Positions 23,579 to 37,420 of a stretch of 64,000 nucleotides of DNA are shown here, piece by piece. Source of the DNA: Thermoanaerobaculia bacterium. GTDB taxonomy: Bacteria; Acidobacteriota; Thermoanaerobaculia; Multivoradales; Multivoraceae. Numbering within the stretch: the stretch's first letter is position 1; every line of letters begins with the position of its first letter. A program made the position numbers and the translations under genes. Below the pieces are notes generated by a model. It saw only the letters and a list, made by a program, of their open reading frames with translations, did no database searches and was not told where the DNA came from. The stretch is taken from contig OY761158.1 in NCBI GenBank assembly GCA_963664405.1, forward strand, positions 6,368,001-6,432,000, written 5' to 3'.

Positions 23579-24991
23579 ATGAAGAACCTCGTTTTTGTCA
23601 CGCTGTTGGTCCTACTCTCTGCAGCCGGTCTCGGTGCCGCCGAACCGGCCGGCGACTTTGATCAGTATTGGCCGCATTGGCGGGGTCCTGGCGATGACGG
23701 AGTTGCTCCACATGCCGACCCGCCGGTGACCTGGTCGGAGAGCGAGAACATTCGTTGGAAAGTGCCGATCGAGGGCGAAGGCTCGGCCTCGCCGATCGTC
23801 TGGGGAGATCTCGTTTTCGTCACCTCGGCGGTGGACACCGGCGAGGGGACCGGCGAAGAGGATGGCTCGGCGGAGGTGGCCGCCCCGCAGCCACCGCCGC
23901 GGCCCCCCCGGCCGCCCGGTGCTCGAGGACCTGGTGGCCGCGGTGGAGGTCGTGGCCGCGGTGGCGGGCGTCCGAGCGGGCGCACCTCGAGCAACGATTG
24001 GCGTTTTGTCGTAACGGCCCTGCGCCGCACTGACGGTGAGACAGTATGGCAACGAACCGCCAACACCGAACGCCCTCACGAGGGGATCCATCCGACAGGA
24101 ACCTTCGCCTCCAACTCGGCGGTCACCGACGGCGAGAGCCTGTTCGCCTATTTCGGTTCGCGCGGGATCTACGCCTACGACCTCGAAGGAAACCCGAAAT
24201 GGAAGCGCGATCTCGGCGACATGACCAAACGTCTCGGCTTCGGCGAGGGGAGCTCGCCGGCCGTCGCAGGCAACGCGCTGGTGATCATCTGGGACCACGA
24301 GGGGGAGTCCTTCGTCGTCGCGCTGGACAAGCATACGGGTGACGAGCTTTGGCGCACGCCGCGAGACGAGATGACGTCGTGGACAACTCCGTTGATCGTC
24401 GAGGAGGGCGGGCGAGCCCAGGTCGTCACCAGTGCGACCGGTAAGGTGCGTAGCTATGCCCTCGACAATGGGGAGCTGCTCTGGGAGTCGAAGGGCGTGA
24501 CTCTGAACGCCATTCCCGCGCCGGTCTACGAAGACGGCATCGTCTACCTCATGAGCGGCTTCCGAGGCAGCGCGCTACAGGCGATTCGACTCGCCGACGC
24601 CAAGGGCGATGTCAGCGGTTCCAAAGCGGTTCTGTGGGAGTACGACCAGGACACGCCTTATGTACCCTCTCCGCTTCTCTACAACGGCGATCTCTATTTC
24701 ACCAAGAGCAACAATGCGATCCTGTCGGTCTTCGACGCCGCCAGCGGCAAGCCGCACTACACGACACAGAGGATCGAGGGACTCACCAACCTCTACGCCT
24801 CCCCGGTCGGCGCCGCGGGTCGGGTCTACATCACCGACCGCAAGGGCAATACCACGGTCATCAAGGCCGGTAGCAGCTATGAAGAGTTGGCGCAGAACTC
24901 GCTCGACGACGCCTTCGACGCGTCGGCGGCCGTAGTCGGCGGCGAGATCTATCTCCGCGGTAAGAATCTCTACTGCATCGCTGAGAACTAG
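23579..24991 (+). CDS. PQQ-binding-like beta-propeller protein with a Pro/Gly/Arg-rich loop
   Basis: WPHWRGP, ASPIVWGD.VFVT, PYVPSPL and YASPV motifs. Confidence 0.88.
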   Translation: MKNLVFVTLLVLLSAAGLGAAEPAGDFDQYWPHWRGPGDDGVAPHADPPVTWSESENIRWKVPIEGEGSASPIVWGDLVFVTSAVDTGEGTGEEDGSAEVAAPQPPPRPPRPPGARGPGGRGGGRGRGGGRPSGRTSSNDWRFVVTALRRTDGETVWQRTANTERPHEGIHPTGTFASNSAVTDGESLFAYFGSRGIYAYDLEGNPKWKRDLGDMTKRLGFGEGSSPAVAGNALVIIWDHEGESFVVALDKHTGDELWRTPRDEMTSWTTPLIVEEGGRAQVVTSATGKVRSYALDNGELLWESKGVTLNAIPAPVYEDGIVYLMSGFRGSALQAIRLADAKGDVSGSKAVLWEYDQDTPYVPSPLLYNGDLYFTKSNNAILSVFDAASGKPHYTTQRIEGLTNLYASPVGAAGRVYITDRKGNTTVIKAGSSYEELAQNSLDDAFDASAAVVGGEIYLRGKNLYCIAEN

Positions 24992-25013
24992 CGTGCATCG
25001 CTGAGAACTAGCG
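24974..25013 (+). repeat. Perfect 20-bp tandem duplication spanning a stop codon
   Basis: TGCATCGCTGAGAACTAGCG x2. Confidence 0.9.
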
Positions 25014-25044
25014 CGTTCACGTACTTATTAGAGAGGCTGATGAC

Positions 25045-26235
25045 ATGAGCTCTGTTCTAGCGGGAACTCGCGTTCTCGATTTCGGGCGGTATATCGCCGG
25101 GCCCTATTGCGCCACCCTTCTCGGCGACATGGGGGCGGACGTGGTGCGGGTGGAGAAGCCTGGCACTGGCAGTGAAGATCGCTGGACGACTCCGATCGCC
25201 GAGGGCGGGGAGGGTAGCTTGTTCATGCAGGTCAATCGCAACAAGCGCTGCCTGACCCTGAACCCCAAGAAACCGGAGGGCCGGCGCATCGTCAAGGAGC
25301 TGGTCTCACGCTCTGACGTGGTGGTGGCCAATCTGCCGCCGCAGACTCTGAAGTCGATGGATCTCGACTACGAGTCGTTGAAAGCGACCAAGCCGGACAT
25401 TATTCTTTCCACCGTCTCGGCCTTCGGTCACGGCGGACCCTACAGTCACCGGGTCGGCTTCGACGGTATCGCCCAGGCGATGTCGGGAGCGATGTACATG
25501 TCGGGTGAGGCGGAAGAACCCGCCAGGCTCTACTACCCCTGGGTCGACTTCACCACCGCCATCCTCACTGCCTTCGGCACAATGGCGGCGATCGTCGAGC
25601 GCCAGAAGACGGGCGAAGGCCAGCAGGTCGAAGGCTCTCTTCTCGCCTCGTCGCTCACCGTCGGTAACAGCACCCTGATCGAGCAGGCCGTCATCGAGGC
25701 GAATCGCACTGCCACCGGGAACCGGGGCCAGACCGCGGCGCCGGTCGATTGCTTCCGCACCAAGGACGGCTTTGTCCAAGTGCTCGTGGTCGGTCAACCC
25801 CTCTTCGAGCGCTGGGCGCGTCTCATGGGTGACGAGCGCCAGTGGCTCGACGACGAGCGCTTCAAAGACGACCTCGCCCGCGGAAACAACGGCGTGGTGA
25901 TCTCAGAGCGAATGCAGCGCTGGTGCGACGATCGCACAACGGCGGAGTGTTTAGAGGATCTGGACGAAGCGAGAGTTCCGGTTGGCCCGGTGTACTCGCC
26001 TCAGCAGGCCTTGGACGATCCTCATATCCAGGCGATGAAGTTCATGGAGCCGGTCGACTACCCCGGCTTGCCGCGGCCCGCTCCGATCGCGGGGACACCG
26101 GTGCGCCTGTCGCGGACGCCGGGTGAGATTCGCCACCGCGCCCCCCTGTTGGGGGAGCACACCGACGAGATCCTCGCCGAGCTTGGCTACGATACCGTTG
26201 CGATAGAGGGGCTTCGCGCAGACAACGTGGTGTGA
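25045..26235 (+). CDS. CoA-transferase family III (CaiB/BaiF)
   Basis: AGPYC..LLGDMGADVVRVE, NRNKR, GFD.IAQA and APLLGEHT motifs. Confidence 0.93.
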   Translation: MSSVLAGTRVLDFGRYIAGPYCATLLGDMGADVVRVEKPGTGSEDRWTTPIAEGGEGSLFMQVNRNKRCLTLNPKKPEGRRIVKELVSRSDVVVANLPPQTLKSMDLDYESLKATKPDIILSTVSAFGHGGPYSHRVGFDGIAQAMSGAMYMSGEAEEPARLYYPWVDFTTAILTAFGTMAAIVERQKTGEGQQVEGSLLASSLTVGNSTLIEQAVIEANRTATGNRGQTAAPVDCFRTKDGFVQVLVVGQPLFERWARLMGDERQWLDDERFKDDLARGNNGVVISERMQRWCDDRTTAECLEDLDEARVPVGPVYSPQQALDDPHIQAMKFMEPVDYPGLPRPAPIAGTPVRLSRTPGEIRHRAPLLGEHTDEILAELGYDTVAIEGLRADNVV

Positions 26236-26239
26236 GCGC

Positions 26240-26689
26240 CTACGGGAGCGGAATCAGGTCGTCTCGCTCCGTCAGCTCTCGTAGCCGCTCCTCGCAGCGA
26301 GCGATGACCTGCACCGCGTCGAGGTCGGGGAAGCGCTTGGCGTCTGAAGAGACGTTGCTCCAACGGATGGTGGTCCGGCGCGGCGCGGCACGACCGCCGG
26401 GCTGCGCGACCAGCATACGGATCACCGTCTCGCTGGTGTCGGAGACGTGGAATAGTTCGCCCCGGCTCTCCTCTTCGGCCACGGCGCCCCGGCGCAGCAG
26501 CTCTCCGCCGGCCACATCCAGTGTCGGCAGCCCCTCGCCTTCGAGATCCGCGAGCAGATTCCGCATCTCGTCGGTGGAGAGTTGCAGCTCGTAGTCGCCG
26601 GCCCTCTTCATATAGACGGGGTAGTGAACGCGAGCTCGGCCGTCACCGTAGAGGCGCAAGAGCGGGGTCGGGTCCTGCTCGGCGAGCAT
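26240..26689 (-). CDS. Hypothetical protein, possibly 5'-truncated
   Basis: Coding-like ORF (LLRLYGDGRARVHYPVYMKRAGDY); the frame appears to continue upstream of the ATG toward the motif at 26779. Confidence 0.5.
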   Translation of the reverse strand: MLAEQDPTPLLRLYGDGRARVHYPVYMKRAGDYELQLSTDEMRNLLADLEGEGLPTLDVAGGELLRRGAVAEEESRGELFHVSDTSETVIRMLVAQPGGRAAPRRTTIRWSNVSSDAKRFPDLDAVQVIARCEERLRELTERDDLIPLP

Positions 26690-26778
26690 GTGGTGGATCT
26701 GGGTGTACTCCAGAATGACGTCGGTGGGCAGCGCACGGGCGGGCGGGCGCCGATGACCAGACGAGAAGTGATTGCTCC

Positions 26779-26794
26779 AAGAAGTGCCACCCGA
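26779..26794 (-). repeat. 16-bp motif TCGGGTGGCACTTCTT, copy 1 (reverse orientation)
   Basis: Exact reverse complement of 40286-40301; 14/16 match to the intron-split copy at 28004-28013 + 33262-33267. Confidence 0.75.
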
Positions 26795-27044
26795 GTATCG
26801 AGTGAGGACTTGAATGGCGGGGAGAGCTCGAAGCTGTTGATGCGTCGAGGACCCTGCGCGTCCTCTTCGGCGCTAGGTTTGCTCTGTCTGACCGTGCACC
26901 CGCCGGGAGTCCTCCTCCCCCGAGACTAGACCTCGAGAGCGAAGTGCGCTAGAAGGCACACGAGGGCGCCCGGTTCGGATTCCGAGGAGAGTTGCCGCCG
27001 TTCTCTGAGCCTTTCCGCTCGAGACGACCGGTGAATGTCGAGAA

Positions 27045-27956
27045 TCAGGTGACAACGAAGGGCAAGGCGGGCGGGAAACATCGCTGCGGAAAGCCGACAG
27101 GCCCAAATTCGGGGAGCTTTCCGCAGGCCTCGCGATAGACAGCTACAAAGCGTTCGTAGGCTTCGTGGAATTGACGAGCCCTTCGCCTCGTAGCCGCGTG
27201 AACGAGCGGAGCGGGGGATCTCGCGCTCGTGCTTGGTCTTCCGTGACGATCCTGTTTCATGATGCCTTCTCTCCCAAGAGGTCGTCCGCCACGCCGGCGC
27301 TGCGTCTCTGCAATGTGTCCAACGCGTTCCCGGAACCATTCAAGACGATCCTCGGGCCTCCAGGCCACCATACAGGGCAGCGGGGTCAGCGTGACCACGC
27401 GACGCTCGACAAAGCGCTCGACCGATGTGTCTGCACCCCGTTGATGTGCCTGATACTGAGCTGTCCGATTGACCCATTCGCCTTCGATTTCGCTCCTTTC
27501 ATGGAGAAGGGCGTGAGTACTCTGCGCTCCTGGCCAGTCCTGGGGCTTCGCGACTAGGCCCTCCTTGCAACCCTGTGCGAGGACGTAATCCATACGCGAG
27601 AGTTGCGCAGTCTCTTCCTCCGTCACCACGATCGCCTGGTATCGGCGGCCCCAGAACTTCTCCCGCCACTGGGCGAGTCTTCCTGCCTCTCGAGCTACGT
27701 TGGATTGAACGTAGTTCATGAAGCGAGCCATCTGCTCGGCATCATCGACGGTTATGAGCAGATGGCAGTGGTTTGAAAGGTAGGTGAAGGCGTGGATCTC
27801 GACCTCATAGAGCTCCTGCGCGCGGCTAAGGACTCCTATGATGCGACGCTTGAGACGCCTCGAAGGACGCAGCAGAAAGCGCCCCTGCATCGTGCGACAA
27901 GTGATCTCGACCAGAGATCGCTCGGGAACAAAGCGGATTCGACGGCTCATACCCAT
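27045..27956 (-). mobile_element. Y1/HUH transposase (IS200/REP-associated tyrosine transposase-like)
   Basis: ITCRT..GRFLLRP, HUH motif YLSNHCHLL, FWGRRY and downstream Tyr (MDYVL). Confidence 0.85.
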
Positions 27957-28422
27957 CTAGGGTGCGTGGGCGGCGGGAAAAATGCGCTCTGCGTCAACCT
28001 TTTTCGGGTGGCAGTGCGACACGAAGGAGGAATCTGATGACCTGATCGAAAGACAGAGATAGGAGACCTCTGGGTCTCGAAGGCCGACGGGTGAAAGTCC
28101 CGCCCGGGGAGTTGTCGGTACACCCCGGTAGCCGCCGGAGCAGTCGATGCGGGTGACCGTCCGGCTGAAGCCTCCGGAACAGCTGGAGTAAGTCCAGTGG
28201 GCAAAGGTGCAGGCCGCAACGCGAGTGAACCCTGAGAAGGCCCCGAAAGTTACTTGCTGGAGCCGACCCTCCTGCCATAAGGGGAAGGCCGCCGCTCGAC
28301 GGAGGAGCAACCGACCGTTGAATCCGCCGAATCCAGCCGGGGTAGTGGGGGTGGCATGTACCGAAGGTCTTTGAGGCAACGTGTGAGACCCACGTCGGTG
28401 GCGGGTTGCGACCGCCAACCGG

Positions 28423-28899
28423 TGAGAGTGAGCACGATAATCGATGGGAATGTTGGCCATTCTGAGCACGGTAGGTGAGGGAAGGGTGTTTGGTCCCTCA
28501 AGTAGTGTGCTCAAGACTAGGTCCGTCGGCATCATCCCCGCCGAAGGCGGGCCGTCGGGGCCTGACGCGCAGTCCATACTTGTTCTTTCGCTGATCACGC
28601 TGAACGAGGGCTGACACGCAGCGATGGGATGAACGGCACGCTATCTGATGGGCGATCGAGGCGGTTCGCCGAGCTTCCATCGCGCTTGGGCCCCTGGTTG
28701 CGCCCTCAGATACCTTGAACGGAACACCCATTCCCACCAGACAACGTGATCGGGTTTCCTCGAATCGCCATCAAATACTGTGAACAAGACCGTCTGAGGC
28801 AAGTGGCAGCGAAACGCAGCTTCGGCTAAGTCCTTCAAAAGGCTACGCGACCATCACTTATCGTGATCGGACCGCCATCGATTATCGTGCTCACTCTCA
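28423..28899. mobile_element. 477-bp non-autonomous transposon inside intron 1 domain II
   Basis: Perfect 25-bp TIRs (TGAGAGTGAGCACGATAATCGATGG) and a 5-bp direct repeat ACCGG at 28418 and 28900. Confidence 0.9.
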
Positions 28900-29594
28900 A
28901 CCGGGAAGGCGTAAAAGGTCGTTCTCGGGCCGTTGTGGGAGTCGGAGGGGCTTGTATTGTGCGCCAGGCAGCGCGTTGATCGGGAGGGTTTGAGTCCCTC
29001 CGGCGCTCGGATGAGGGGCGTCGTATCCAAAAGCGGGGGTAATGCCTCGCTGGCCGAAGAGGGAGACAGGTATGGAGAGCTCTAAACGGGCACGAAGGGG
29101 AAACCCGGAAACAGCCAAGGGTGACCTGGAGCCAGCTCTCGTGAGACTTCGGAGGGCAGGGTGTCCACCGCGAGGTGGGATCCGAAGGGCTTGCGGAGAA
29201 GTACCGGGCCGTAGTCGATGGGGGCCACCCCGAAGACGAACCGGTCGGCCAAAGGTGGGACAAGGTCGAGCCTGCAGTATGGAGGCGAAGGCATTTTTCA
29301 TCCACCCACCGCACCAAGGTGTTTGCGGACGGCACGGTACGGAAGATCAGCGTGTGACCCTGGGAGAGCTCGTCGTGTCTGCGGGTGGCACCGCGGTAAC
29401 GGACCCTATAAGCGCAAGCGAAGTGGGAAGGGATGCGCGGCGAGCAGTCGGACGGTCGAGTAGTACTTCAAGCGCGGTGAAAGCCGTGTGACCGCGAGGA
29501 GCGGCAGCTGTGTGAGCTGGGGAAGGCGGCCGGCGAAGACGGTAGGGGAGAGAAGGAAGGCGAGCGAGTAAGGCGGTCGAGGCTGGATAGTTCC

Positions 29595-32500
29595 ATGAGT
29601 GAAAAACCCGAACATCGACAGCCGAGGAGACTGGCTGACTGGATCAACCCGTCGGGAGAGAGGAAGATTCACTCTCTGATCGACAAGGTGTACAAGCGCA
29701 AGAACCTGGAGATCGCCTGGGAACGCGTCAAGTCCAATCGGGGCGCGGGCGGCATCGACGGCCAGAGCATCGAGGAGTTCTCCGAGGGGCTCTCTGAGCA
29801 CCTCGACAGACTTCACGAGGAGCTGTGTCGTGATGAGTACCGACCGCAACCCGTGAGGCAGAAGCGGATCCCGAAGGCGGGCCAGCCGGGGAAGTACCGC
29901 ACGTTGGGCATCCCCACGGTCTATGACCGTGTCTGCCAGCAAGCGATGCTGAATCGGTTGGAGCCGATCTTCGAGCCGGTATTCGATGCTGCCAGCTTCG
30001 GATACCGTCGAGGGCGATCCCAACACGGGGCTCTGCGCAAGGTTTGGAAGGAGATCCAATCGGGCAAGGAGTGGATCGTGGACGCGGACCTGAGGGATTT
30101 CTTCGGGAGCGTGGACCACGAGAAGCTGTTGACGCTCGTGAGCCAACGGGTTTCCGACGGTCGGGTGCTGAGGGTTTTGCGCTCAGTACTCAAAGCCGGG
30201 AGCTACGGGGAGGGTCGCCTGTTTCCGACCGAGCGTGGGACTCCGCAGGGCGGGGTCGTATCGCCCTTGCTGAGCAACATTCTTCTGACTCCTTTTGATC
30301 AGGAGATGCGACGCAGAGGGTTTCGACTCACGCGGTATGCCGACGACTGTGCGCCACGACGGCGCGAAAGGAGTACTCATGTAATTGGGTGTTCTAGAGC
30401 AGCCTTGCTACACGAGAGATGAGGGTGGGCCCCTCGGAGCCGGCATGCAGGTGCAGGCTTCAAACCGCCACGAGCTGCGCGGGTCAAGAGCCCGGGTGGT
30501 GAGCGTCGCTGGAAAAGGCGGGACAAGATTCCGTCAGGTGTGGATCGAGGAGACGAGCGCAAGCGAACCGTCGATGACCTGTCGAAAGCGTAGGGACGAC
30601 GTCAAAACCGGAGGGAGTCGTTACTCCGGGAGGAGTCTGGGTGTTACCTGCCTACAGCCCAGGCGGCGTCCGGCAGCAAGGCGGCGTGACCTCGATGCAG
30701 GCTCTCGTGTGGAACGTGGGAACCTGTCGTCCCGATGCGAAGGGAGAATTCCAAGTGGTCGACCCATGAGGAAGAGAGTACCGATGCGGGGCACAGGGGC
30801 GGAGTCGCGCGTAGTAGTGAGGAAGGTCCTGTAATGGGGCCGGAGCGAAGGCGCGGCACCAACCAGCCGGGTCCGGAGGCCAACCGGCAACGGGAGGAGT
30901 CTTTGGCGAAGGCAAAGCCCTTTCGCATTCCCAAGCGGTGGGTTTGGGAGGCGTACAAGCGGGTAAAGGCAAACCGAGGCGCGGCAGGCGTGGATGGGCA
31001 GTCGTTGGCAGCTTTCGAGGAGCGTCTGAGAGACAATCTGTACAAGCTGTGGAATCGGCTGTCATCAGGGAGCTACATGCCGCCGCCGGTCAAGCGGGTA
31101 GAGATCCCGAAGCCCGGCGGTGGAACGCGTCCCCTGGGTGTGCCAACCGTGGCGGATCGGATCGCGCAAACGGTCGTGAAGAGGATCCTGGAGGCCGAGG
31201 TGGAGACACACTTCCACCCAGACTCCTACGGGTACCGGCCCGGGAAATCAGCGCTTGGTGCGTTGGGTGTGGCGCGGCAGCGATGCTGGCGCTACGACTG
31301 GGTTTTGGATCTCGATGTCAAAGGTTTTTTCGACGCGATCGATCACGATCTTCTGCTGCGGGCGGTGCGTTACCACACGGATTGCCGTTGGGTGCTGCTC
31401 TACATTGGGCGGTGGCTCCGTGCCCCCGTTCAGTTGAAGGATGGCACTCTTGAGTCTCGGGAGAGGGGGACTCCCCAGGGGTCGGTGGTTTCACCACTGC
31501 TGGCGAACCTCTTCTTGCACTATGCGTTCGACCGGTGGATGGCGCGTCACCACTCGGACATTCCGTTCGAGAGGTTTGCTGACGATGCGATCTGCCATTG
31601 CCGAACGGCGGAGCAAGCGCAGAGACTGAAGCAGGAGCTCGCGGGTCGCTTTGCGGCATGTGGGCTTGAGCTGCATCCGCGCAAGACGAAGATCGTCTAC
31701 TGCAAGGATGACGACCGACGGGGGACGTACGAGAACGAGAAGTTTGACTTCTTGGGCTACACGTTTCGTGCTCGGCGATCGAAGAATCGCTGGGGTAAGT
31801 ACTTCGTCAACTTCAGTCCCGGCGTGAGCAACGCGGCGGGTAAAGCGATGCGTCAGACCATTCGGGGCTGGCGTCTCGACTGTCGGATCGACAAGCAAGT
31901 GGACGACCTGGCTCGGATGTTCAATCCGATCGTCCAGGGCTGGATCAACTACTACGGTCGGTACTACAAGTCGGCGCTCTATCCGTCCCTTTGCCATCTT
32001 GATCGTCATCTGGCTCGCTGGGCGAGGGCGAAATACAAACGTCTGCGGAGACATCGAAGGAGATCGGATCAGTGGGTGCGGAAAGTCCGTGACCGGGATC
32101 CACATCTCTTTGCGCATTGGCGCTTCATGTCGTCTCAGGCGAAGGCTGGATGGTAAGAGCCGGATGAGTGGAGACATTCACGTCCGGTTCTGTGAGGGGG
32201 TGGGGGTGAGATTCCCCCGCCCTACTCGACGGGTCCTCACTTCTTCGACCGTGGCTGAGGCTCGTAGAGCCTTGGCTGTGGCGACGAGGATCTTGGAGCG
32301 GCTCGGTGTCTCCATCAATCCGCAGAAGACGCGGATCGTGCACGTGAAGCATGGTTTCGAGTTTCTCGGGTACAAGATCAAGCTCGGAAAGCAGCTTCGG
32401 CTGCCGCGGGCGAAGATCCGCAGCGGTGCCCTTTCGGGCGCCCTGTATGCCTACCCGACTCAGAAGTCGATCCAGCACTTCAAGCAGCAGATTCGCGGTC

Positions 32501-32784
32501 GGACGCGGCGGAAGGCACCGGTTACCACCGAGCAGCTGATCGAACAGCTGAATCCGGTCCTGCGTGGATGGGGGCACTACTACAAACGTGCCCACGTCCG
32601 ACGGCTCTTTCACCAGCTCGACCCATGGGTGGTGCGGCGCCTCTGGTCGCACCGTCACAAGCGCTGGCGCTGTAAAGGGTGGGACAGCCTGCCCAAGGCC
32701 ACGCTGTACGGCGAGATGGGCTTGGTGAACCTTGTCGGTCTGATTCCTTCCATCGATTCTTCCCCCAAGGGGGCGTCTTCGTGA
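29595..32784 (+). CDS. ltrA: Intron 2 reverse transcriptase/maturase, split: join(29595..30348,32231..32784), 435 aa
   Basis: RT0-7 motifs (LGIPTVYDR, DADLRDFF, GTPQGG..SPLL.N); splicing restores YADD-W-VLT, then F.FLGY and domain X (LNPVLRGWGHYY); 1308 nt in frame. Confidence 0.9.
30349..32230 (+). ncRNA. Group II intron 3 (class D/RmInt1-like), inserted right after the YADD codons of the intron 2 RT
   Basis: 5' GTGCGCC; EBS2 CGGCAT (30441) and EBS1 AGTCGT (30616) complement exon ATGCCG-ACGACT; domain V GAGCCGGATGAGTGGAGACATTCACGTCCGGTTC; 3' CCTACTCGAC. Confidence 0.92.
30903..32156 (+). CDS. ltrA: Intron 3 reverse transcriptase/maturase (no endonuclease domain)
   Basis: TTG start after GGAGGAG; NLYKLWNRLSSGSY.PPPV, GTPQG..SPLLAN, RFADD, FDFLGY, GWINYYG; ends at LFAHW. 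Confidence 0.93.
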   Translation: MAKAKPFRIPKRWVWEAYKRVKANRGAAGVDGQSLAAFEERLRDNLYKLWNRLSSGSYMPPPVKRVEIPKPGGGTRPLGVPTVADRIAQTVVKRILEAEVETHFHPDSYGYRPGKSALGALGVARQRCWRYDWVLDLDVKGFFDAIDHDLLLRAVRYHTDCRWVLLYIGRWLRAPVQLKDGTLESRERGTPQGSVVSPLLANLFLHYAFDRWMARHHSDIPFERFADDAICHCRTAEQAQRLKQELAGRFAACGLELHPRKTKIVYCKDDDRRGTYENEKFDFLGYTFRARRSKNRWGKYFVNFSPGVSNAAGKAMRQTIRGWRLDCRIDKQVDDLARMFNPIVQGWINYYGRYYKSALYPSLCHLDRHLARWARAKYKRLRRHRRRSDQWVRKVRDRDPHLFAHWRFMSSQAKAGW

Positions 32785-33261
32785 AAGCCGGATGCGGGAA
32801 ATCTGCACGTCCGGTTTGAGCGGCGGACGGAGGCCAGCCTGCGGGTAACCGCGGGCGCCTCCTCCGACCCGACACTGACGAAGCCGGGTAACTCCGGTGG
32901 AGGGAAGGAGCCCTAGTTCTGGTGCGCTTTGGAAGGAGAAGGAGACCGGGATTGACGCAAGTCTAGGAACCCGAATGAGTCAAACGACTCCGGAAGAAGC
33001 TCTGTGACAAGACCAAGCGAGAGGACGGTACAAGCTCCGATCGCAAGGAGCCGCCCGGCTAGATCGGGTCGAGGGGATCGACTCGCGAATGCCTTGTCGT
33101 GAAGCCAGTCCGGGAGCCGTGTGCGGGAAAACCGCAAGCACGGTTCGATGAGAGGCGGCGGGAAACGGAGCCAAGGACAGGATAGTGAGGCACTCGCAAC
33201 CGAAAGGGCGAGAAAACAGATGGGCCTGACCTACAGCCACCGCGCCCGCCGTCGACTCCAC

Positions 33262-33375
33262 CCTCATTTCAAGGCGTCCTCCCAGGGGATCTTCGTCAAA
33301 GGCAAGAACATTCGGGTGCCTGCCGGTACGGAGTACATGCTGTTCACCAGGGACGACTCGGGGGTTCGCATGTAA
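33262..33375 (+). pseudogene. 3' fragment of an unknown gene abutting the intron-split motif
   Basis: ...GIFVKGKNIRVPAGTEYMLF...* reads like a protein C-terminus but has no 5' part. Confidence 0.4.
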
Positions 33376-33430
33376 CCCAGCGAGCGTCGGCGGGCTGTGA
33401 GCTCGGGAGGCAGCCGCCAATGAATCCACC

Positions 33431-33904
33431 TCAGAGGGCCATGGCGAAGAGCCCCGCCGCGGCCAGTGACGCGGCGGTCCTGACGGTATTCCAGAGAGTC
33501 CAACGCGAGAGGTAGTGGTCCCACAACGCCTCTGCACCCGAGCTGTCTGGCTCGGCAGATGCCAGCCGATTGTTCAGAGGCACGTTGAACGCTACCGTCA
33601 CCAGAAGGCACCCGAGCAAATAGAGGGCACACCCAGCGAGCAAGTACGCCCGGTGCGTCCCGGTAGTGCTCCCCAAAGCGAGAAAGGCGACTGGGAGGCA
33701 CGCCGCCCCCGTCCCAAAAAAGGCGAGGACGAACCACGGGTTGAGTACCGTGACGTTGATGGCCTTCATGGCGGCGATTCCCTCACTCTTCGGCAACTGG
33801 CCGAGGGCTCGCATGATGAATGTCGAGAAGGCGAAGAAGATTCCGGCCACTAGGCCGGAGCCCAGCACCGCGGCGAAGATCAGCAGGTCTAAGAGATGAT
33901 TCAT
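33431..33904 (-). CDS. DUF1772 / anthrone oxygenase family membrane protein
   Basis: GLVAGIFFAFSTFIM.AL, AMKAIN, NVPLNN.L and W..WNTVRT; ATGA overlap with the upstream gene. Confidence 0.88.
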   Translation of the reverse strand: MNHLLDLLIFAAVLGSGLVAGIFFAFSTFIMRALGQLPKSEGIAAMKAINVTVLNPWFVLAFFGTGAACLPVAFLALGSTTGTHRAYLLAGCALYLLGCLLVTVAFNVPLNNRLASAEPDSSGAEALWDHYLSRWTLWNTVRTAASLAAAGLFAMAL

Positions 33905-34923
33905 CCTTGGCGCTCCCAGATGCCGGTCGCGGCGGTCTGAAGAGCGTAGTCGGTGAAGTCGCGAGGCTCTCTTCCCAGTGCTCGACGCACGCCGTCTCCC
34001 AAGTGAGCGTTTCGACCGTCGAGGACGGTGGCGAAGAGGTAATTCAACAGCCACGCGATGTCCTCCGGTAGGCCCCCCTCAGCCACCCCGGCCGCGAAGG
34101 CTTCGGGCGGGATCTGCTCGTAGCGGATCTCACGTCCGGTCGCCCGGGCGATCTCGCCCACTGCTTCAGCGAAGGTGAGGAGTCGGGGCCCGGTGAGCTC
34201 GTAGATCTGGCCGCCGTGGCCGTCTTCGGTCAGCGCGGCAACTGCGACATCGGCGATGTCGTCCACGTCGACGAACGGCTCCCCGACTTCGCCCGCTGGA
34301 AGCGCGATCTCTCCGCCCAGCACCATGTCGAGAAATTCCCCTTCTGAGAAGTTCTGGGAGAACCAGCTGCAGCGAACGACGGTCCATTCGATGTCCGCAC
34401 GTTGGATGATGAGCTCGCACTCCTGCGCCTCCTCCTCTCCGCGACCGGACAGGAGAACCAAGCGCCGCACTCCCTGCCTCACGGCTCGCTCGACGAAGGC
34501 GCGGATGGCGTCCGTCGCCCCCGGGATGGCGAGGTCGGGGGCATAGCTGATGTACGCCGCGGTAACGCTATCGAGCACGGCGCCCCAATTGCTCTGATCG
34601 CCCCAGTCGAAGGGCGGATCGGACTGCCGCGACCCCTTCCGCACTGGGTGGCCTTTCTCTGCGAGACCTTCGACGATCCGTCGACCGGTTTTGCCGGTGA
34701 CCACCATCGTGTCACCGGAAATGGCGAGGATTCCAAACTTGTCCCCAGCCTCGGTATTGGAGGCCTTGAGATAGATGGCTTGCTCAAAGCTGGAATCAAT
34801 GGTGAGCGGATAATTGGATAAGTCATTAGGCACCTCGCCGGCTTCGACGCCGCCGGGAGCCACTACTCCTACACTAGGGAGGCACAAGAGGGCGAGAGCC
34901 CACAACGGTGTCCTGAAGGGCAA
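33901..34923 (-). CDS. NmrA-like NAD(P)H-binding protein with a foreign N-terminus (probable chimera/pseudogene)
   Basis: TGKTGRR...FDW...LSGRGE...WFSQNF...FVDVDDIADVA core, preceded by a signal peptide and an FG-GAP-like YLKASNT..GD.FG..AISGDT segment. Confidence 0.7.
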   Translation of the reverse strand: MPFRTPLWALALLCLPSVGVVAPGGVEAGEVPNDLSNYPLTIDSSFEQAIYLKASNTEAGDKFGILAISGDTMVVTGKTGRRIVEGLAEKGHPVRKGSRQSDPPFDWGDQSNWGAVLDSVTAAYISYAPDLAIPGATDAIRAFVERAVRQGVRRLVLLSGRGEEEAQECELIIQRADIEWTVVRCSWFSQNFSEGEFLDMVLGGEIALPAGEVGEPFVDVDDIADVAVAALTEDGHGGQIYELTGPRLLTFAEAVGEIARATGREIRYEQIPPEAFAAGVAEGGLPEDIAWLLNYLFATVLDGRNAHLGDGVRRALGREPRDFTDYALQTAATGIWERQG

Positions 34924-35339
34924 GTCTCCTTTCTCAGGTCGCGAGCGACAGGATGTTCAAAGCGGCGGTATCGTGATTCTGACAGAGTTTCCTTTTCTGC
35001 GCGAAGCCGGGCCGCTCAGAGCGGTCACCACTGCCGCAGTCCGTCAGCTTCTGCTCACGTGGCCCGGGCACCGCGAGCCTTGCTCTAGTCGAGGAGCCGC
35101 GATAGCCAATGCAGAGTGTTCATGAACAGCTGCGGGTTGTGGAGCTCCGGATGGCGCTCAGCCCACTCCCGTGGATCTGCGACTATTCCGTGCTCGCTAA
35201 AGATGGCGAGCCGTCCTCTTTCGACTCGTAGCACCCCCCGGTTCTTGGGACTGGACCGATCCCGCGATGAGGACGATAGCCGAGAGCAGAAGAGACCACC
35301 CTTCGCGGGCTCCCGAGAGGATTTCGACCGTGCCTGAGG

Positions 35340-35882
35340 TCAGGCCCACGGCAGACGTCCCTTGCCAGCCAGGTGAGCCAGCACGCCTTCCAGCAACGCT
35401 CGGCCGTCCTTTGCCGGCTCTACACCGACCTCTCGAGCCCACTCTGGCCACGCCCTCAGCTGGGTCGCGTGGTGTCCGGTCTCGGTGTGGACTTGTCGCC
35501 CGAGGACGAGCAGGCGCTGTTGGAGCGCCCTGCCGGCTTTGCCGCTCGCCCGTACCGTTCCCTCGCGCTCGACCCGGCCCAGTAGCGCCTGTTCTTCTTC
35601 CGATAGCCCGTCGCGGCTCGCCTCGAGGGCGGCGGCAAGCAGCGCCGGCCACAACCGCCGGTGAACGAAGGTCGTCTTCCCGGAGACCAGCTTGCAAACC
35701 AGCACATCGGGATGGTCCTCGAGCTCACCAGTGAGCGCGAAGATGCGATGGCTCTCTGGGTGGCCCCACCAAGAGCCCTTTACCGACCCCACAAGCAGCC
35801 CGACGACGCTCGGCAGGGCCTTGTCTTGCTGCAACAGCAGCCCGTACTCTTCGAGGGCCTCCAGCAGGTCGCTAAACTCCAT
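35340..35882 (-). CDS. Conserved hypothetical protein
   Basis: Coding-like ORF with GSWWGHP and KLVSGKTTFVHRRLWP motifs; follows the hydrolase gene. Confidence 0.7.
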   Translation of the reverse strand: MEFSDLLEALEEYGLLLQQDKALPSVVGLLVGSVKGSWWGHPESHRIFALTGELEDHPDVLVCKLVSGKTTFVHRRLWPALLAAALEASRDGLSEEEQALLGRVEREGTVRASGKAGRALQQRLLVLGRQVHTETGHHATQLRAWPEWAREVGVEPAKDGRALLEGVLAHLAGKGRLPWA

Positions 35883-35887
35883 CGCGG

Positions 35888-36769
35888 CTACTTCGTCGAC
35901 ACTGAGGCCAAGAAGCGGCTGAGCTCGGCCTCAAACTCTGCCGGCCGCTCGATCATCAGAAAGTGGCTGACATCGCGCCACATCACCCAGTCGAGCTGCG
36001 GCGCCAGTTTCTCGATTGCGGCTCTGTACTCGTCGTTCCAGGTCGGCTGTTCGACCAGGAGTGCCAGCAACGGTACGCGGATCACTTCGTCACTCCACAT
36101 CGCCGGATCGGCCGTCGCGAGCACCGCATCGACCATCGTCCGTTGCGGTGTGGCAAGAGCCATCTCGGTGATGCCCCGGACGCTCTCTTCCGCAAGGCCG
36201 CCGCCCGCCATCCCCGTGATCATCTGGGTCACGGTGTCCCGGTAGCCCTCTGCGCGCAGCGGCGCGACCATACCTTCGACCGCTTCGACCGTGAACATGT
36301 GCCGCAGTGCGCCATCGACCGCCACCAGCGCCGCCGTTCGCTCAGGATAGGAGCGGTAAAAGCGCACCGCCACCGGCGTGCCGTTGGAGTGACCGACAAT
36401 CACCGCCCGCTCGACCCCGGCGTCGTCCATCACAGTGGCTACGGCGTCGGCGAAGAGGCCCAGGGTGTATTCCTCATCGTCACCGATCTCGTCGCTCTTG
36501 CCGTGACCCGGTAGATCGACGACCAGCACCCTGCCAAGCTCGCTGAGCGCCGGCAGCTGCCGATGCCAGGCCCAGGTCGAGCTCGCCCAGCCGTGAACGA
36601 GAACAAGAGTCGGTTTGTCGCTCTGCGACCTGCCGTAGCTCTCGTAGTAGAGCTTGTGGCCGTCGAGCGTCGTCGTGTGCTCAGAAGCGTGCGTCTCGGC
36701 GGAGATCGGCGATCCGGCCAGGCCGAGCAGGAGCAGCAATGAGGGAATCGTGGGAAGAGGGTCGGTCAC
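35888..36769 (-). CDS. Secreted alpha/beta hydrolase
   Basis: LVHGW, DLPGHGKS, GHSNG nucleophile elbow and C-terminal SHF. Confidence 0.9.
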   Translation of the reverse strand: MTDPLPTIPSLLLLLGLAGSPISAETHASEHTTTLDGHKLYYESYGRSQSDKPTLVLVHGWASSTWAWHRQLPALSELGRVLVVDLPGHGKSDEIGDDEEYTLGLFADAVATVMDDAGVERAVIVGHSNGTPVAVRFYRSYPERTAALVAVDGALRHMFTVEAVEGMVAPLRAEGYRDTVTQMITGMAGGGLAEESVRGITEMALATPQRTMVDAVLATADPAMWSDEVIRVPLLALLVEQPTWNDEYRAAIEKLAPQLDWVMWRDVSHFLMIERPAEFEAELSRFLASVSTK

Positions 36770-36798
36770 GCGACGTGCTCACGAGGGGATTATCGAAC

Positions 36799-36964
36799 CT
36801 AGACCAGCGTTTCCAAAGTTCGCGCACATATCTCGGCCCCTTCTGCCCGCTGCCGGCGTTACGCCTCCTCGACATATTGCCCAATATGCCTGCGTCGGCG
36901 CGCCTGGCCAGCGAACAGAATGAGCTCGAGCTATGCAGCACGAACTTTGGAAACGCTGGTCTAG
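36799..36964. mobile_element. Palindromic MITE/REPIN-like element, terminal type B (copy B1)
   Basis: CTAG-ACCAGCGTTTCCAAAGTTCG ... CGAACTTTGGAAACGCTGGT-CTAG; 166 bp. Confidence 0.88.
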
Positions 36965-37016
36965 TTTGCGCCATGAGCTGAATAGGCGCAACTTCTTGCG
37001 GTCTCCTCCGTTACTT

Positions 37017-37068
37017 CTCTTGACGGTCTACAGGAACGCGTGGTATCACTACTGTAGACCATCAAGAG
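37017..37068 (+). promoter_or_regulatory. Putative sigma70 promoter overlapped by two inverted 17-bp operator boxes upstream of padR
   Basis: TTGACG (37020) - 18 nt - TATCAC (37044); CTCTTGACGGTCTACAG and CTGTAGACCATCAAGAG are 16/17 inverted copies. Confidence 0.6.
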
Positions 37069-37075
37069 GAAGGCC

Positions 37076-37420
37076 ATGGCACACGACCAATCCGAACTTC
37101 TCCAGGGCACGTTGGAGCTCTTGATCCTGAAGACGCTCTCGCTCGAGCCGCTGCACGGCTGGGGGATCAGCTTGCGGATCCGGCAGATGTCGAGAGACGT
37201 GTTCCAGGTGAACCAGGGAAGCCTCTATCCCGCACTCCAGCGGATGACGTCCAAAGGCTGGATCCGCTCCGAGTGGCGGACGACAGAAAACAATAGGCGC
37301 GCGAGGTACTACATGCCGACCCCGGCAGGGGAGCGGGAGCTAGCCCGGGAGCGCTCGCAGTGGGAGCGCTCATCAGCCGCCGTCAACTGGGTCCTCAACT
37401 CGACCGGAAACACCGCATGA
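37076..37420 (+). CDS. PadR family transcriptional regulator (Acidobacterial subfamily)
   Basis: LLQGTLELLILKTL..PLHGWGI, GSLYPAL.R and ENNRRARYY motifs. Confidence 0.93.
   Translation: MAHDQSELLQGTLELLILKTLSLEPLHGWGISLRIRQMSRDVFQVNQGSLYPALQRMTSKGWIRSEWRTTENNRRARYYMPTPAGERELARERSQWERSSAAVNWVLNSTGNTA

What the first reader, a model, noticed from the sequence alone, without database searches (positions are those of the whole stretch)
28014..33261. Three nested group II introns plus a TIR element in one locus
Seen in sequence: intron 1 (28014-33261) contains intron 2 (28959-32873) in its domain III, and intron 2 contains intron 3 (30349-32230) inside its RT ORF. Each has its own GUGCG start, domain V and AC end. 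Removing the introns in silico from the inside out restores a 435-aa RT and then an intact domain III. Inference: splicing must be hierarchical, because intron 3 has to leave before intron 2 can make its maturase, and intron 2 has to leave before ORF-less intron 1 can fold. Twintrons are known, but a three-level nest with clean junctions is unusual.
Basis: partly seen in the sequence, partly recalled or inferred. Interest (0 to 1): 0.9.

Follow-up and report, generated by a model that had tools for sequence, protein, structure and literature searches.

The report
Three nested bacterial group II introns
Three self-splicing mobile introns really do sit one inside another here, with a small transposon as a fourth layer, but such stacking of selfish elements is a known kind of arrangement and has no visible role for the host.

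Summary
Observation confirmed. Rfam finds three domain V/VI ends and three 5' ribozyme motifs at the stated coordinates. Uninterrupted paralogs in the same genome give exact empty sites for all four insertions: intron 3 in intron 2, intron 2 in intron 1, and a 477-bp IS256-family MITE in intron 1.

Intron 3 belongs to the published lineage that homes into the YADD codons of other introns' RT genes (PMC2504315). Intron 2 belongs to a widespread lineage: 52 of 61 assessable metagenome loci show the same domain-III-type 5' flank.

Nests of up to five introns are known in Methanosarcina (PMC4424553). This scan has also noted YADD-type twintrons in at least 14 other genomes.

"Must be hierarchical" is only partly supported:
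- An intact intron 2 RT and an ORF-bearing intron 1 exist elsewhere in the genome.
- The MITE cannot be spliced out.
- The nest lies in no gene.
- No splicing data could be obtained.

Verdict: a new member of a known kind, of moderate interest. The most novel part is the domain-III-homing habit of intron 2's lineage.

The parts
28003..28013 (+). 5' exon of intron 1. It is an 11-nt target, TTCGGGTGGCA (candidate IBS2+IBS1), and a copy of a genome-wide repeat, TCGG(C/G)TGGCA|CC.
   Evidence: Six intron 1 copies share (T)TCGG(C/G)TGGCA before GTGCGA. The genome has 133 hits of TCGG[CG]TGGCA, 34 of them followed by C[CT]T. Candidate EBS1 (TGCCA at 28273) and EBS2 (GCCGAA at 28326) were located.
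28014..33261 (+). Intron 1, the outer intron. It is an ORF-deleted group II intron, 851 nt without its inserts. Pieces: 28014-28422, 28905-28958 and 32874-33261.
   Evidence: D1D4-4 at 28085-28224 and domain V/VI at 33112-33261. An uninterrupted 851-nt paralog lies at G000:C1:2592101-2592951, and an RT-bearing paralog at 6214298-6216332.
28385..28943 (+). Domain II of intron 1. It is Y-shaped (intron positions about 372-448) and is interrupted by the MITE at its three-way junction.
   Evidence: RNAalifold on 12 unique homologs: the closing stem and the second arm have pairs of 3-6 standard types, while the two predicted pairs of the first arm have only 1-2. The domain I closing helix ACACG/CGUGU is read from the sequences.
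28423..28899 (.). 477-bp MITE. It is a deletion derivative of a 1849-bp IS256-family element. TIRs are at 28423-28447 and 28875-28899; the ACCGG target duplication is at 28418-22 and 28900-04.
   Evidence: Perfect 25-nt inverted repeat. Eight MITE copies and seven full-length copies in the genome. The transposase matches Pfam Transposase_mut at 2.2e-87. Empty sites in three intron 1 paralogs.
28944..28958 (+). 5' half of domain III of intron 1, up to the intron 2 insertion point. The 3' half is 32874-32919.
   Evidence: The domain III stem has covariation: pair 139:191 shows 4 types and 140:190 shows AU/GC. All 12 of 12 sequences form standard pairs in 8 of its 10 stem pairs. The site GUAGU|ACUG is conserved in homologs.
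28959..32873 (+). Intron 2, the middle intron. It encodes an RT and is 2033 nt without intron 3. Pieces: 28959-30348 and 32231-32873.
   Evidence: Domain V/VI at 32783-32873 (42.2 bits) and a weak D1D4-3 hit. Empty sites in intron 1 paralogs B and C. An uninterrupted copy at G000:C1:2679570-2681602.
29595..30348 (+). N-terminal part of the intron 2 RT ORF, ending ...RYADD plus 1 nt.
   Evidence: Pfam RVT_1 profile positions 1-155 of 205, E 8e-30.
30349..32230 (+). Intron 3, the innermost intron. It is a complete 1882-nt RT-encoding intron of the YADD-homing lineage.
   Evidence: D1D4-2 at 108.3 bits and domain V/VI at 64.7 bits. Three copies in the genome are 100% identical. Empty sites in two intron 2 copies. 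It is 66.9% nt-identical over 1866 aligned positions to a same-length intron at RYADD in a Photorhabdus record.
30735..32156 (+). Intron 3 RT/maturase ORF. The longest frame is 473 aa and the true start may lie further downstream. It has no endonuclease domain.
   Evidence: Pfam RVT_1 1.9e-39 and GIIM 1.4e-16. Best solved relative is GsI-IIC RT at 3.1e-46.
32231..32784 (+). C-terminal part of the intron 2 RT ORF: the end of the RT domain plus the maturase (X) domain.
   Evidence: Pfam RVT_1 profile positions 158-205 and GIIM at 3.1e-20.
32920..33107 (+). Domain IV of intron 1, holding only remnants of the RT ORF.
   Evidence: The 4-bp basal helix directly follows domain III, and its 3' strand lies just before GUCCGRR and domain V. 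It forms 32 of 32 standard pairs in 8 distinct strand pairs, with 4/2/2/3 pair types; slid controls give 9-18 of 32. Paralog B carries 1226 extra nt here that encode the RT.
27045..27956 (-). Neighbouring Y1 (IS200-like) transposase-like gene, flanked by inverted copies of the intron 1 target repeat. This is context, not part of the nest.
   Evidence: Pfam Y1_Tnp at 2.5e-09. Repeat copies at window 26784-26794 (-) and 28004-28014 (+).

Best explanation
The locus is a stack of four selfish elements built by successive site-specific insertions. It has no apparent role for the host.

The four layers:
1. Intron 1 is an ORF-deleted derivative of an RT-bearing intron still present in the genome. It retrohomed, by EBS/IBS pairing, into one copy of a genome-wide short repeat (..TCGG(C/G)TGGCA|CC..) next to a Y1-transposase-like gene.
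2. Intron 2 belongs to a lineage whose usual target is the conserved internal loop of ribozyme domain III of other group II introns (..GUAGU|ACYG..). It inserted there in intron 1.
3. Intron 3 belongs to the published lineage that targets the YADD-coding sequence of other introns' RT genes. It inserted into the RT gene of intron 2.
4. An IS256-family MITE transposed into domain II of intron 1.

What follows if the locus is transcribed:
- Intron 3 has an intact ORF and is 100% identical to two other copies. It could splice and move by itself.
- Intron 2 cannot make its own RT until intron 3 is removed, but it could use the nearly identical RT of the intact copy in trans.
- Intron 1 cannot form domain III until intron 2 is removed. 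It needs the RT of its ORF-bearing paralog, and it stays burdened by the MITE.

Shown: the anatomy, the boundaries, the domain positions and the lineage habits. Inferred: retrohoming as the insertion mechanism, any splicing at this locus, and its order.
For: - Boundaries. Empty-site paralogs exist for all four insertions.
- Ribozyme and protein parts. Rfam; Pfam, with RVT_1 split between profile positions 155 and 158; the restored frame is 435 codons.
- Trans sources. An intact intron 2 (473-codon open frame) and an RT-bearing intron 1 are present.
- ORF-less intron 1 was mobile. Copies A, C and D share the same ORF deletion but lie at three different sites, each with the same target motif.
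- Domain map. Domain III and the domain IV basal helix are supported by covariation.
- Intron 3 lineage. Of 80 RT relatives, 22 are flanked on both sides by the halves of another RT, and 18 show the explicit (R/N/G)(Y/F)ADD+1 nt|GTG(C/T)G junction. It is 66.9% nt-identical to a Photorhabdus intron of identical length at RYADD. The habit is described in PMC2504315 section 13.
- Intron 2 lineage. 52 of 61 metagenome loci with at least 30 nt of 5' flank have the domain-III-type flank, and 48 of 61 end in TAGT. Of the 20 long-flank loci that I picked from the 80, 18 show parts of a host intron beside it.
- Within this genome, intron 2 sits at the same site in two intron 1 backgrounds and in a different intron, 'I4'.
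- Precedents. Methanosarcina nests and homologous-recombination deletions (PMC4424553). A matching recombination product exists here at G000:C1:3046577-3050756.
Against: - No RNA or mobility data exist for this locus.
- The candidate EBS1 (ACTTCG) and EBS2 (CAGCCA) of intron 2 pair with only 4+4 of 12 positions at this copy's site. By my own inspection, the figures are 4+6 at paralog D and 6+3 in I4. Entry here may therefore have been by recombination or by a relaxed event.
- The closest whole-genome relative of intron 2 (G393, 71% RT identity) is not clearly in a domain III site.
- 9 of 61 metagenome loci have other 5' flanks. Some lie in IS6-type transposase genes.
- The domain map rests on 12 sequences of a single intron class.
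- The assembly of a locus made of 100%-identical repeats was not checked with long reads.
Confidence: 0.85

Rival explanations
1. One reading: the locus is transcribed and processed by an obligatory ordered cascade (intron 3, then intron 2, then intron 1). Each step depends on the one before, and the cascade ends in ligated exons.
For: - Intron 2 lies in the domain III internal loop of intron 1, and intron 3 splits the RT of intron 2. The cis products do therefore need inside-out removal.
- Sequential splicing of a bacterial twintron has been shown in Trichodesmium (PMC4649490, passages read).
Against: - Trans RT sources exist.
- The MITE in domain II cannot be removed at the RNA level.
- The flanks are non-coding on this strand and the neighbouring genes are on the other strand.
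- The identical 3272-nt block made of the intron 2 5' half plus intron 3, found at two loci, is compatible with intron 2 moving while still holding intron 3.
Confidence: 0.1
2. Intron 2 arrived in intron 1 already carrying intron 3. A pre-formed twintron moved as one unit, or was copied in by recombination or gene conversion. The insertions were not two successive events at this locus.
For: - The 5' half of intron 2 (1390 nt) plus intron 3 (1882 nt) are 100% identical between this locus and G000:C1:3046982-3050253. The intact intron 2 copy differs by 0.7%.
- The intron 2 site in this copy pairs poorly with the candidate EBS1/EBS2.
Against: - All three intron 3 copies are identical, which also fits very recent independent insertions. 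That was the argument made for the identical inner introns of Thermosynechococcus (PMC2882425).
- There is no direct evidence that a 3.9-kb composite RNA can reverse-splice.
Confidence: 0.35
3. Assembly artefact: repeated introns were joined wrongly, and no such nest exists in the cell.
For: The inner elements are 99-100% identical repeats of 0.5-3.9 kb. Short-read contigs of public runs break at every element boundary.
Against: - The genome is a single 6.78-Mb contig.
- Both outer ends of intron 1 carry the proper target halves at the same locus.
- Short-read contigs of two runs reach 25-27 nt into intron 1 from both unique flanks (table 8).
- The MITE has its own target duplication inside intron 1.
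- A two-level version (intron 1 holding intron 2) exists at another locus.
Confidence: 0.03

Closest known systems
Nested group II introns of Methanosarcina acetivorans (Dai & Zimmerly 2003, known to me only through PMC4424553 section 17, PMC2882425 and PMC2504315; the original paper is not held)
   Same: - Several introns sit one inside another, and the flanking exons are non-coding.
- The nest was built by repeated site-specific homing into other introns.
- The nests are trimmed by homologous recombination; a recombination product is present in this genome too.
   Different: - This case is bacterial, not archaeal.
- It has three levels rather than up to five.
- One layer is in ribozyme domain III rather than in an ORF.
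- A DNA transposon (MITE) forms a fourth layer.
YADD-homing introns M.a.I5, UA.I3, P.l.I2 and B.th.I3 (Tourasse & Kolsto 2008, PMC2504315 section 13, passage read)
   Same: - Intron 3 targets the ..(Y/F)ADD-coding sequence, GC(C/T)GACGACT|.
- It is about 1.8 kb (1882 nt).
- Its RT has no endonuclease domain.
- It is 66.9% nt-identical to a Photorhabdus record's intron at the same site. The paper gives 58-67% among members.
   Different: It is a new host and a new copy. No direct comparison with the named members was possible, because their sequences were not at hand.
Thermosynechococcus elongatus twintrons, TeI3 inside TeI4 (Mohr et al. 2010, PMC2882425, passages read)
   Same: - The inner intron homes to a conserved site of another intron.
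- Identical inner copies sit in diverged outer copies.
- ORF-less introns are served in trans by related RTs.
   Different: - There, the inner intron is ORF-less and lies in domain IV between two start codons.
- Here, intron 2 encodes an RT and lies in domain III, and there is a third level.
Trichodesmium erythraeum twintron (Pfreundt & Hess 2015, PMC4649490, passages read)
   Same: The inner intron lies in the ribozyme body of the outer one (there, domain I), so ordered splicing is needed.
   Different: - That twintron is in a protein-coding gene, and sequential splicing was shown experimentally.
- Here the setting is intergenic and untested.

Membership tests
Group II intron (each of the three) | Domain V/VI matching the Rfam Intron_gpII model at or above its gathering score | tested here: met
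   64.7, 42.2 and 40.4 bits against a cut-off of 40.
Group II intron (each of the three) | 5' GUGYG, 3' AY, and a bulged A 7-8 nt from the 3' end | tested here: met
   GTGCG at 28014, 28959 and 30349. The ends are ..CAC..GAC and ..GAC, with A at -7 in each (sequence).
Group II intron (each of the three) | Domains I-IV with a class-typical 5' motif | tested here: met
   D1D4-4 at 97.9 bits for intron 1 and D1D4-2 at 108.3 bits for intron 3. Intron 2 reaches only 30.9 bits for D1D4-3, against a cut-off of 32. A full I-VI map was made for intron 1 only.
Group II intron (each of the three) | Intron-encoded RT with a maturase (X) domain in domain IV | tested here: met
   RVT_1 plus GIIM in intron 3 and in the two halves of intron 2. 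For intron 1 they are found only in paralog B.
Group II intron (each of the three) | EBS-IBS pairing with the flanking 5' exon | tested here: inconclusive
   Candidates were found by inspection. Intron 1: TGCCA and GCCGAA, 5+5 of 11 at this copy. Intron 3: AGTCGT, 6 of 6. Intron 2: ACTTCG and CAGCCA, only 4+4 of 12 at this copy. None was tested by covariation.
Group II intron (each of the three) | Self-splicing or RT-assisted splicing activity | not testable with these tools
   The public runs are kept as contigs only. No junction specific to splicing was seen.
Twintron / nested intron | Removing the inner element restores the outer one exactly | tested here: met
   Empty-site paralogs match the joined flanks base for base at all junctions. 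The RT frame is restored to 435 codons.
YADD-homing intron lineage (M.a.I5 / P.l.I2 / B.th.I3) | Insertion right after the (Y/F)ADD codons of another RT gene | tested here: met
   Seen in 3 of 3 genomic copies: two in intron 2 and one in I4. Among 80 relatives, 18 have the explicit junction.
YADD-homing intron lineage (M.a.I5 / P.l.I2 / B.th.I3) | About 1.8 kb, an En-less RT, and 58-67% nt identity along the whole length to other members | tested here: met
   1882 nt. There is no domain beyond GIIM. It is 66.9% identical to the 1882-nt intron in a Photorhabdus heterorhabditis record. The named members themselves were not compared.
MITE of an IS256-family element | Terminal inverted repeats, a target duplication, no transposase, and a full-length parent encoding one | tested here: met
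   25-nt perfect TIRs. The duplication here is ACCGG. At the other copies direct repeats of 3-7 bp can be read in the flanks, imperfect or absent at a few. The 1849-bp parent has a Transposase_mut ORF.
Sequentially spliced twintron (Euglena / Trichodesmium type) | Observed splicing intermediates in the order inner, then outer | not testable with these tools
   No raw RNA reads were available.

The most novel reading that the evidence does not exclude
Intron 2 represents a widespread lineage of RT-encoding group II introns that, as far as my searches go, has not been described. Its natural home is the conserved internal loop of ribozyme domain III of other group II introns, with hosts of at least three Rfam D1-D4 types. 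It would be an 'intron of introns' that silences its host ribozyme until it splices out.

Together with the YADD-homing intron 3, this genome holds filled and empty sites for two different intron-on-intron parasites. It would be a tractable system for an ordered three-step splicing cascade.
Probability: 0.35. Interest if true: 0.6.

Novelty: new member of a known kind. Interest (0 to 1): 0.42.

Why it matters
The locus is a clean natural example of mobile introns parasitising other mobile introns at two different conserved targets: the RT active-site codons and ribozyme domain III. Filled sites, empty sites and a recombination product all lie in one complete genome.

Such nests create 'safe' and self-renewing homing sites, and they expand non-essential DNA.

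They also defeat automatic intron finders. One published pipeline states that it cannot detect the outer intron of a twintron (PMC8919778, passage read).

If the domain-III-homing habit is new, it adds a second general strategy of intron hyperparasitism. It would also give a case in which ordered splicing is structurally enforced.

Tried and rejected
**1. RNA evidence.**
- One search for runs and one laying of two RNA and two DNA-type runs.
- All four runs are kept as contigs.
- Most joints seen (28415>28898; 28952>32874 with 6 other letters; 28958>32874; 30348>32231; 29371>30080) are the DNA forms of paralogs B, C, D and H. All but the first also stand in the DNA-type runs. The other five joints of table 5 I could not assign.
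- No joint at 28013|33262 and no junction specific to splicing was seen. This says nothing either way.
- RNA-library contigs of 659 and 806 nt carry an uninterrupted ORF-less intron 1 variant. DNA carry-over cannot be excluded.

**2. Promoter and terminator scan of 27600-28200.** None found. The scan covers sigma-70 consensus sites only.

**3. My first idea for the intron 2 site.**
- I first placed the site in domain IVa. The reasons were the analogy with Thermosynechococcus and the ATG that lies 5 nt downstream of the site in I4.
- I rejected this. The stem-loop is closed locally with covariation, and a separate 4-bp helix right behind it pairs with the strand before domain V.
- The ATG is not conserved.

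**4. An 8-bp helix, CGGAGAGG with ..UCCG before domain V.** Pairs 5-8 showed many mismatches, so I dropped it.

**5. Whole-intron MFE folds.**
- They were not informative for domains.
- My 'restored' copy there kept both target-duplication copies (856 nt instead of 851 nt) and was not used further.
- For a while I also numbered the intron 2 site 468. The correct intron position is 463|464.

**6. Class assignment of the three RTs by PDB search.** All three are nearest to GsI-IIC RT, so the search does not discriminate. No labelled reference set was available, so the classes are not assigned.

**7. Closest whole-genome relative of intron 2 (G393).** Its boundaries and site are unclear.

**8. Literature.**
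- Searches. None of the listings, nor the passages I opened, describes a domain-III-homing lineage.
- Not held, and so not read: Dai & Zimmerly 2003, Simon et al. 2008 and Dai & Zimmerly 2002.
- Supplements are closed. These unread sources may already describe the lineage.

**9. Organism.** It was not identified.
Full report
**What is there**

The window is G000:C1:6368001-6432000 of a single-contig 6.78-Mb genome.

A permissive Rfam scan of 24000-38000, and a gathering-score scan of the whole window, place three group II domain V/VI matches at 32155-32230 (64.7 bits), 32783-32873 (42.2 bits) and 33112-33261 (40.4 bits). They place 5' ribozyme motifs at 28085-28224 (D1D4-4), 30421-30539 (D1D4-2) and, just under its cut-off, 29164-29353 (D1D4-3). 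Nothing else in the 64 kb reaches a gathering score.

The sequence shows GTGCG at 28014, 28959 and 30349. It shows ends in AC at 33261, 32873 and 32230, each with an A at -7.

A perfect 25-nt inverted repeat bounds 28423-28899.

**Proof of the boundaries**

I laid the genome in the script box and compared the seven pieces of the locus with it.

Every insertion has an empty-site counterpart.
- The MITE is absent from intron 1 copies B (6214298-), C (2592101-2592951) and D (2890811-). There the sequence reads through a single ACCGG.
- Intron 2 is absent from copies B and C, which read ..TTGTATT|ACTGAGG.. and ..CGAAGT|ACTGATG..
- Intron 3 is absent from the intron 2 copies H (2681602-2679570, minus strand) and D, which read ..GCCGACGACT|GGGTCC..

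In-script joining of the two RT halves gives a 435-codon frame. It matches copy H at 429 of the 436 positions compared. Pfam finds RVT_1 profile positions 1-155 in the first half, and positions 158-205 plus GIIM in the second.

**The elements**

*Intron 1.* Without its inserts it is 851 nt and has no ORF. Copy B carries 1226 extra nt in the same place, encoding a 454-aa RT with RVT_1 and GIIM. Copies A (this locus), C and D share one deletion but lie at three different sites. The ORF-less form has therefore moved, presumably with the RT of copy B.

All six copies or fragments follow (T)TCGG(C/G)TGGCA and precede CCT or CTT. That motif is a dispersed repeat, with 133 hits of its 10-nt core in the genome. 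Many hits are followed by a GC-rich hairpin (by eye). Inverted copies flank the neighbouring Y1-transposase-like gene. This agrees with earlier first-stage notes.

*The MITE.* It consists of the two ends of a 1849-bp element that is present seven times and encodes a Mutator/IS256-type transposase.

*Intron 3.* It is present three times at 100% identity.

*Census of the genome.* The genome holds 12 domain V matches, 7 of them over the cut-off, and 8 GIIM matches.

**Domain map of intron 1**

I collected homologs of intron 1 from 400 further genomes of the same phylum. Counting G000, 26 of 401 had a match. I aligned the region between domain I and the ORF, and the region before domain V.

RNAalifold on 12 unique sequences gives two structures.
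- A Y-shaped domain at intron positions about 372-448. Its closing stem has pairs of up to six standard types.
- A separate stem-loop directly behind it, at positions about 449-509. Its 10-bp stem covaries: pair 139:191 shows four types and 140:190 shows AU/GC.

The four bases that follow this stem-loop pair with the four bases just upstream of GUCCGRR and domain V. They form 32 of 32 standard pairs in 8 distinct strand pairs, with 4, 2, 2 and 3 pair types. With the partner slid by 1-3 columns, only 9-18 of 32 pair.

This helix encloses the ORF, so it is the base of domain IV. The stem-loop before it is then domain III, and the Y-shaped domain is domain II.

Intron 2 sits at 463|464, in the 5' internal loop of domain III, within a conserved ..GUAGU|ACYG... 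The MITE sits at the three-way junction of domain II.

My own first guess, domain IVa, was wrong.

**Lineage habits: intron 3**

The RT of intron 3 has hundreds of relatives. Of 599 candidate stretches, 591 were confirmed and the best 80 were kept.

Flank analysis of these 80 loci:
- 22 are flanked on both sides by the N- and C-halves of another RT. That makes 19 of the 56 loci with enough flank on both sides. Four of the 22 belong to one MAG with a different, unresolved arrangement.
- 10 more have such a flank on one side.
- 18 show the explicit junction (R/N/G)(Y/F)ADD plus 1 nt|GTG(C/T)G.

Several loci come from the same MAGs, so these counts are not independent.

One of these introns, in a Photorhabdus heterorhabditis record, is also 1882 nt long and 66.9% identical over 1866 aligned positions.

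This is the lineage described by Tourasse & Kolsto (PMC2504315, section 13, passage read). Its members are B.th.I3, M.a.I5, UA.I3 and P.l.I2. The paper describes them as about 1.8 kb, En-less, 58-67% identical, targeting the RYADD codons and creating twintrons.

In this genome, intron 3's own RT reads GCTGACGATG at that place. The RT of a fifth intron (I5) carries a perfect, unoccupied target.

**Lineage habits: intron 2**

In 401 genomes of the phylum, only one other genome has an RT more than 47% identical to that of intron 2 (G393, 71%). Its site is unclear.

In metagenome contigs, 557 of 600 candidate stretches were relatives and the best 80 were kept, at 69-100% identity. One of them, L159, is 100% identical and probably comes from the same organism.

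Flank counts:
- Of 61 loci with at least 30 nt of 5' flank, 52 have the same flank type: ..GUC(A/G)G.. followed 8-15 nt later by (A/G)U(A/U)(G/A)U|. In 48 of the 61 the flank ends in TAGT.
- Of 66 loci with at least 60 nt of 3' flank, 47 begin A(C/G)(C/U), and 28 carry the GGAG(G/C)GAAGG-type motif within 75 nt.
- 23 of the 52 loci that are assessable on both sides match on both sides.

I chose the 20 loci with the longest flanks from the 80 and ran Rfam on them.
- 15 have another intron's D1-D4 motif (types -3, -4 or -6) 40-260 nt upstream of the intron 2-like 5' end.
- 5 have a second domain V about 1.5 kb downstream.
- 18 of the 20 have at least one of these; 2 have neither.

Exceptions include IS6-type transposase genes.

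Inside this genome, intron 2 occupies the same site in two intron 1 backgrounds (A and D). It also occupies it in a different intron, I4 (D1D4-6 type).

I found no description of this habit in the listings of six literature searches or in the passages I opened. The key early papers are not held, and supplements are closed.

**Other loci of the same network**

- Locus H. I4 holds intron 2 in its domain III-equivalent and intron 3 after its FADD codons.
- Locus G. The order is I4 5' part, intron 2 5' half, intron 3, I4 3' part. This is what recombination between two direct intron 3 copies would leave. The review of the Methanosarcina nests describes the same balance of homing and recombination (PMC4424553, section 17).
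- The intron 2 5' half plus intron 3 are 100% identical between this locus and G. This leaves open that the pair moved as a unit.

**How it most likely works**

The insertions are best explained as retrohoming events guided by intron RNA pairing, plus one DNA transposition.

All three RTs lack an endonuclease domain. According to the review, such introns use replication-fork primers (PMC4424553, section 8).

Candidate exon-binding sites were located by inspection. They fit well for intron 3 (6 of 6) and for intron 1, but only partly for intron 2 at this copy.

The nest lies between the start of a minus-strand Y1-transposase-like gene and the end of a minus-strand anthrone-oxygenase-like gene. 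The host therefore needs no splicing here.

If the locus is transcribed:
- Intron 3 is autonomous.
- Intron 2 needs either prior removal of intron 3 or the RT of copy H.
- Intron 1 needs removal of intron 2 (the domain III insert) and the RT of copy B. It keeps the MITE in domain II, where the 25-nt repeats could at best fold the insert into an extra arm (inference).

**Comparison and verdict**

Nested arrays of up to five introns in Methanosarcina, twintrons in Thermosynechococcus, a sequentially spliced twintron in Trichodesmium and the YADD-homing lineage are all in print. Earlier agents of this scan reported YADD-type twintrons in at least 14 other genomes. One first-stage note reports the CCGUAGU| site in another genome.

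The finding is real and well bounded. It is a new member of a known kind.

Its most original aspect is that the middle intron belongs to a widespread lineage that homes into domain III of other introns. I could not find that in print.

Noticed in passing
window 26784-26794 (-) and 28004-28014 (+); genome-wide: A dispersed repeat, ..(A/T)AT(A/G)(T/C)TCGG(C/G)TGGCACC.., is often followed by a GC-rich hairpin such as GCAGCCGAAGGCTGC. Its core has 133 hits in the genome. Inverted copies flank the Y1 (IS200-like) transposase-like gene at 27045-27956, in a REP/RAYT-like layout. The repeat is the target of intron 1.
   Followed up: partly
G000:C1:3046577-3050756 (L012): A chimeric element in the order I4 5' part, intron 2 5' half, intron 3, I4 3' part. 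It looks like a deletion by recombination between two direct copies of intron 3.
   Followed up: partly
G000:C1:2676190-2682008, minus strand (L011): A second three-intron locus with a different topology. Intron I4 (D1D4-6 type) holds intron 2 in its domain III-equivalent and intron 3 after its FADD codons, side by side. This intron 2 copy starts GCGCG instead of GTGCG.
   Followed up: partly
G000:C1:884854-886834, minus strand (L014): A distant relative of intron 1 (I5, 1981 nt, with a 449-codon RT frame) splits what reads like an IS6-type transposase gene (..WLYHRF|LSFRDVEDLL..). Its RT carries a perfect but unoccupied target for intron 3.
   Followed up: no
L020, L021, L023; L230, L231, L237: Some members of both intron-homing lineages sit in transposase genes instead, at sequences that read W-H-L-D-E or V-D-E-T-Y (my reading: IS6-type DDE motif). 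This is an alternative conserved target with similar nucleotides.
   Followed up: no
G164:C5:1484832-1485681 and 1445876-1446488 (L100, L126): A genome placed in another family of the same phylum holds intron 1 copies that are 97-99% identical to those of this genome. Either the intron was transferred recently or the two genomes are closer than their labels suggest.
   Followed up: no
window 32886 > 30338 (table 5): Contigs of two DNA-type public runs join 32886 back to 30338. No such junction exists in the assembled genome. It may be another arrangement in a related strain, or a graph artefact.
   Followed up: partly
window 28022-33230 as laid (records 9 and 15): Two metatranscriptome libraries contain contigs of 659 and 806 nt of an uninterrupted ORF-less intron 1 variant. 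Their word depth (35 and 22.6) is higher than in most other bins of the locus in those runs. DNA carry-over is not excluded.
   Followed up: no
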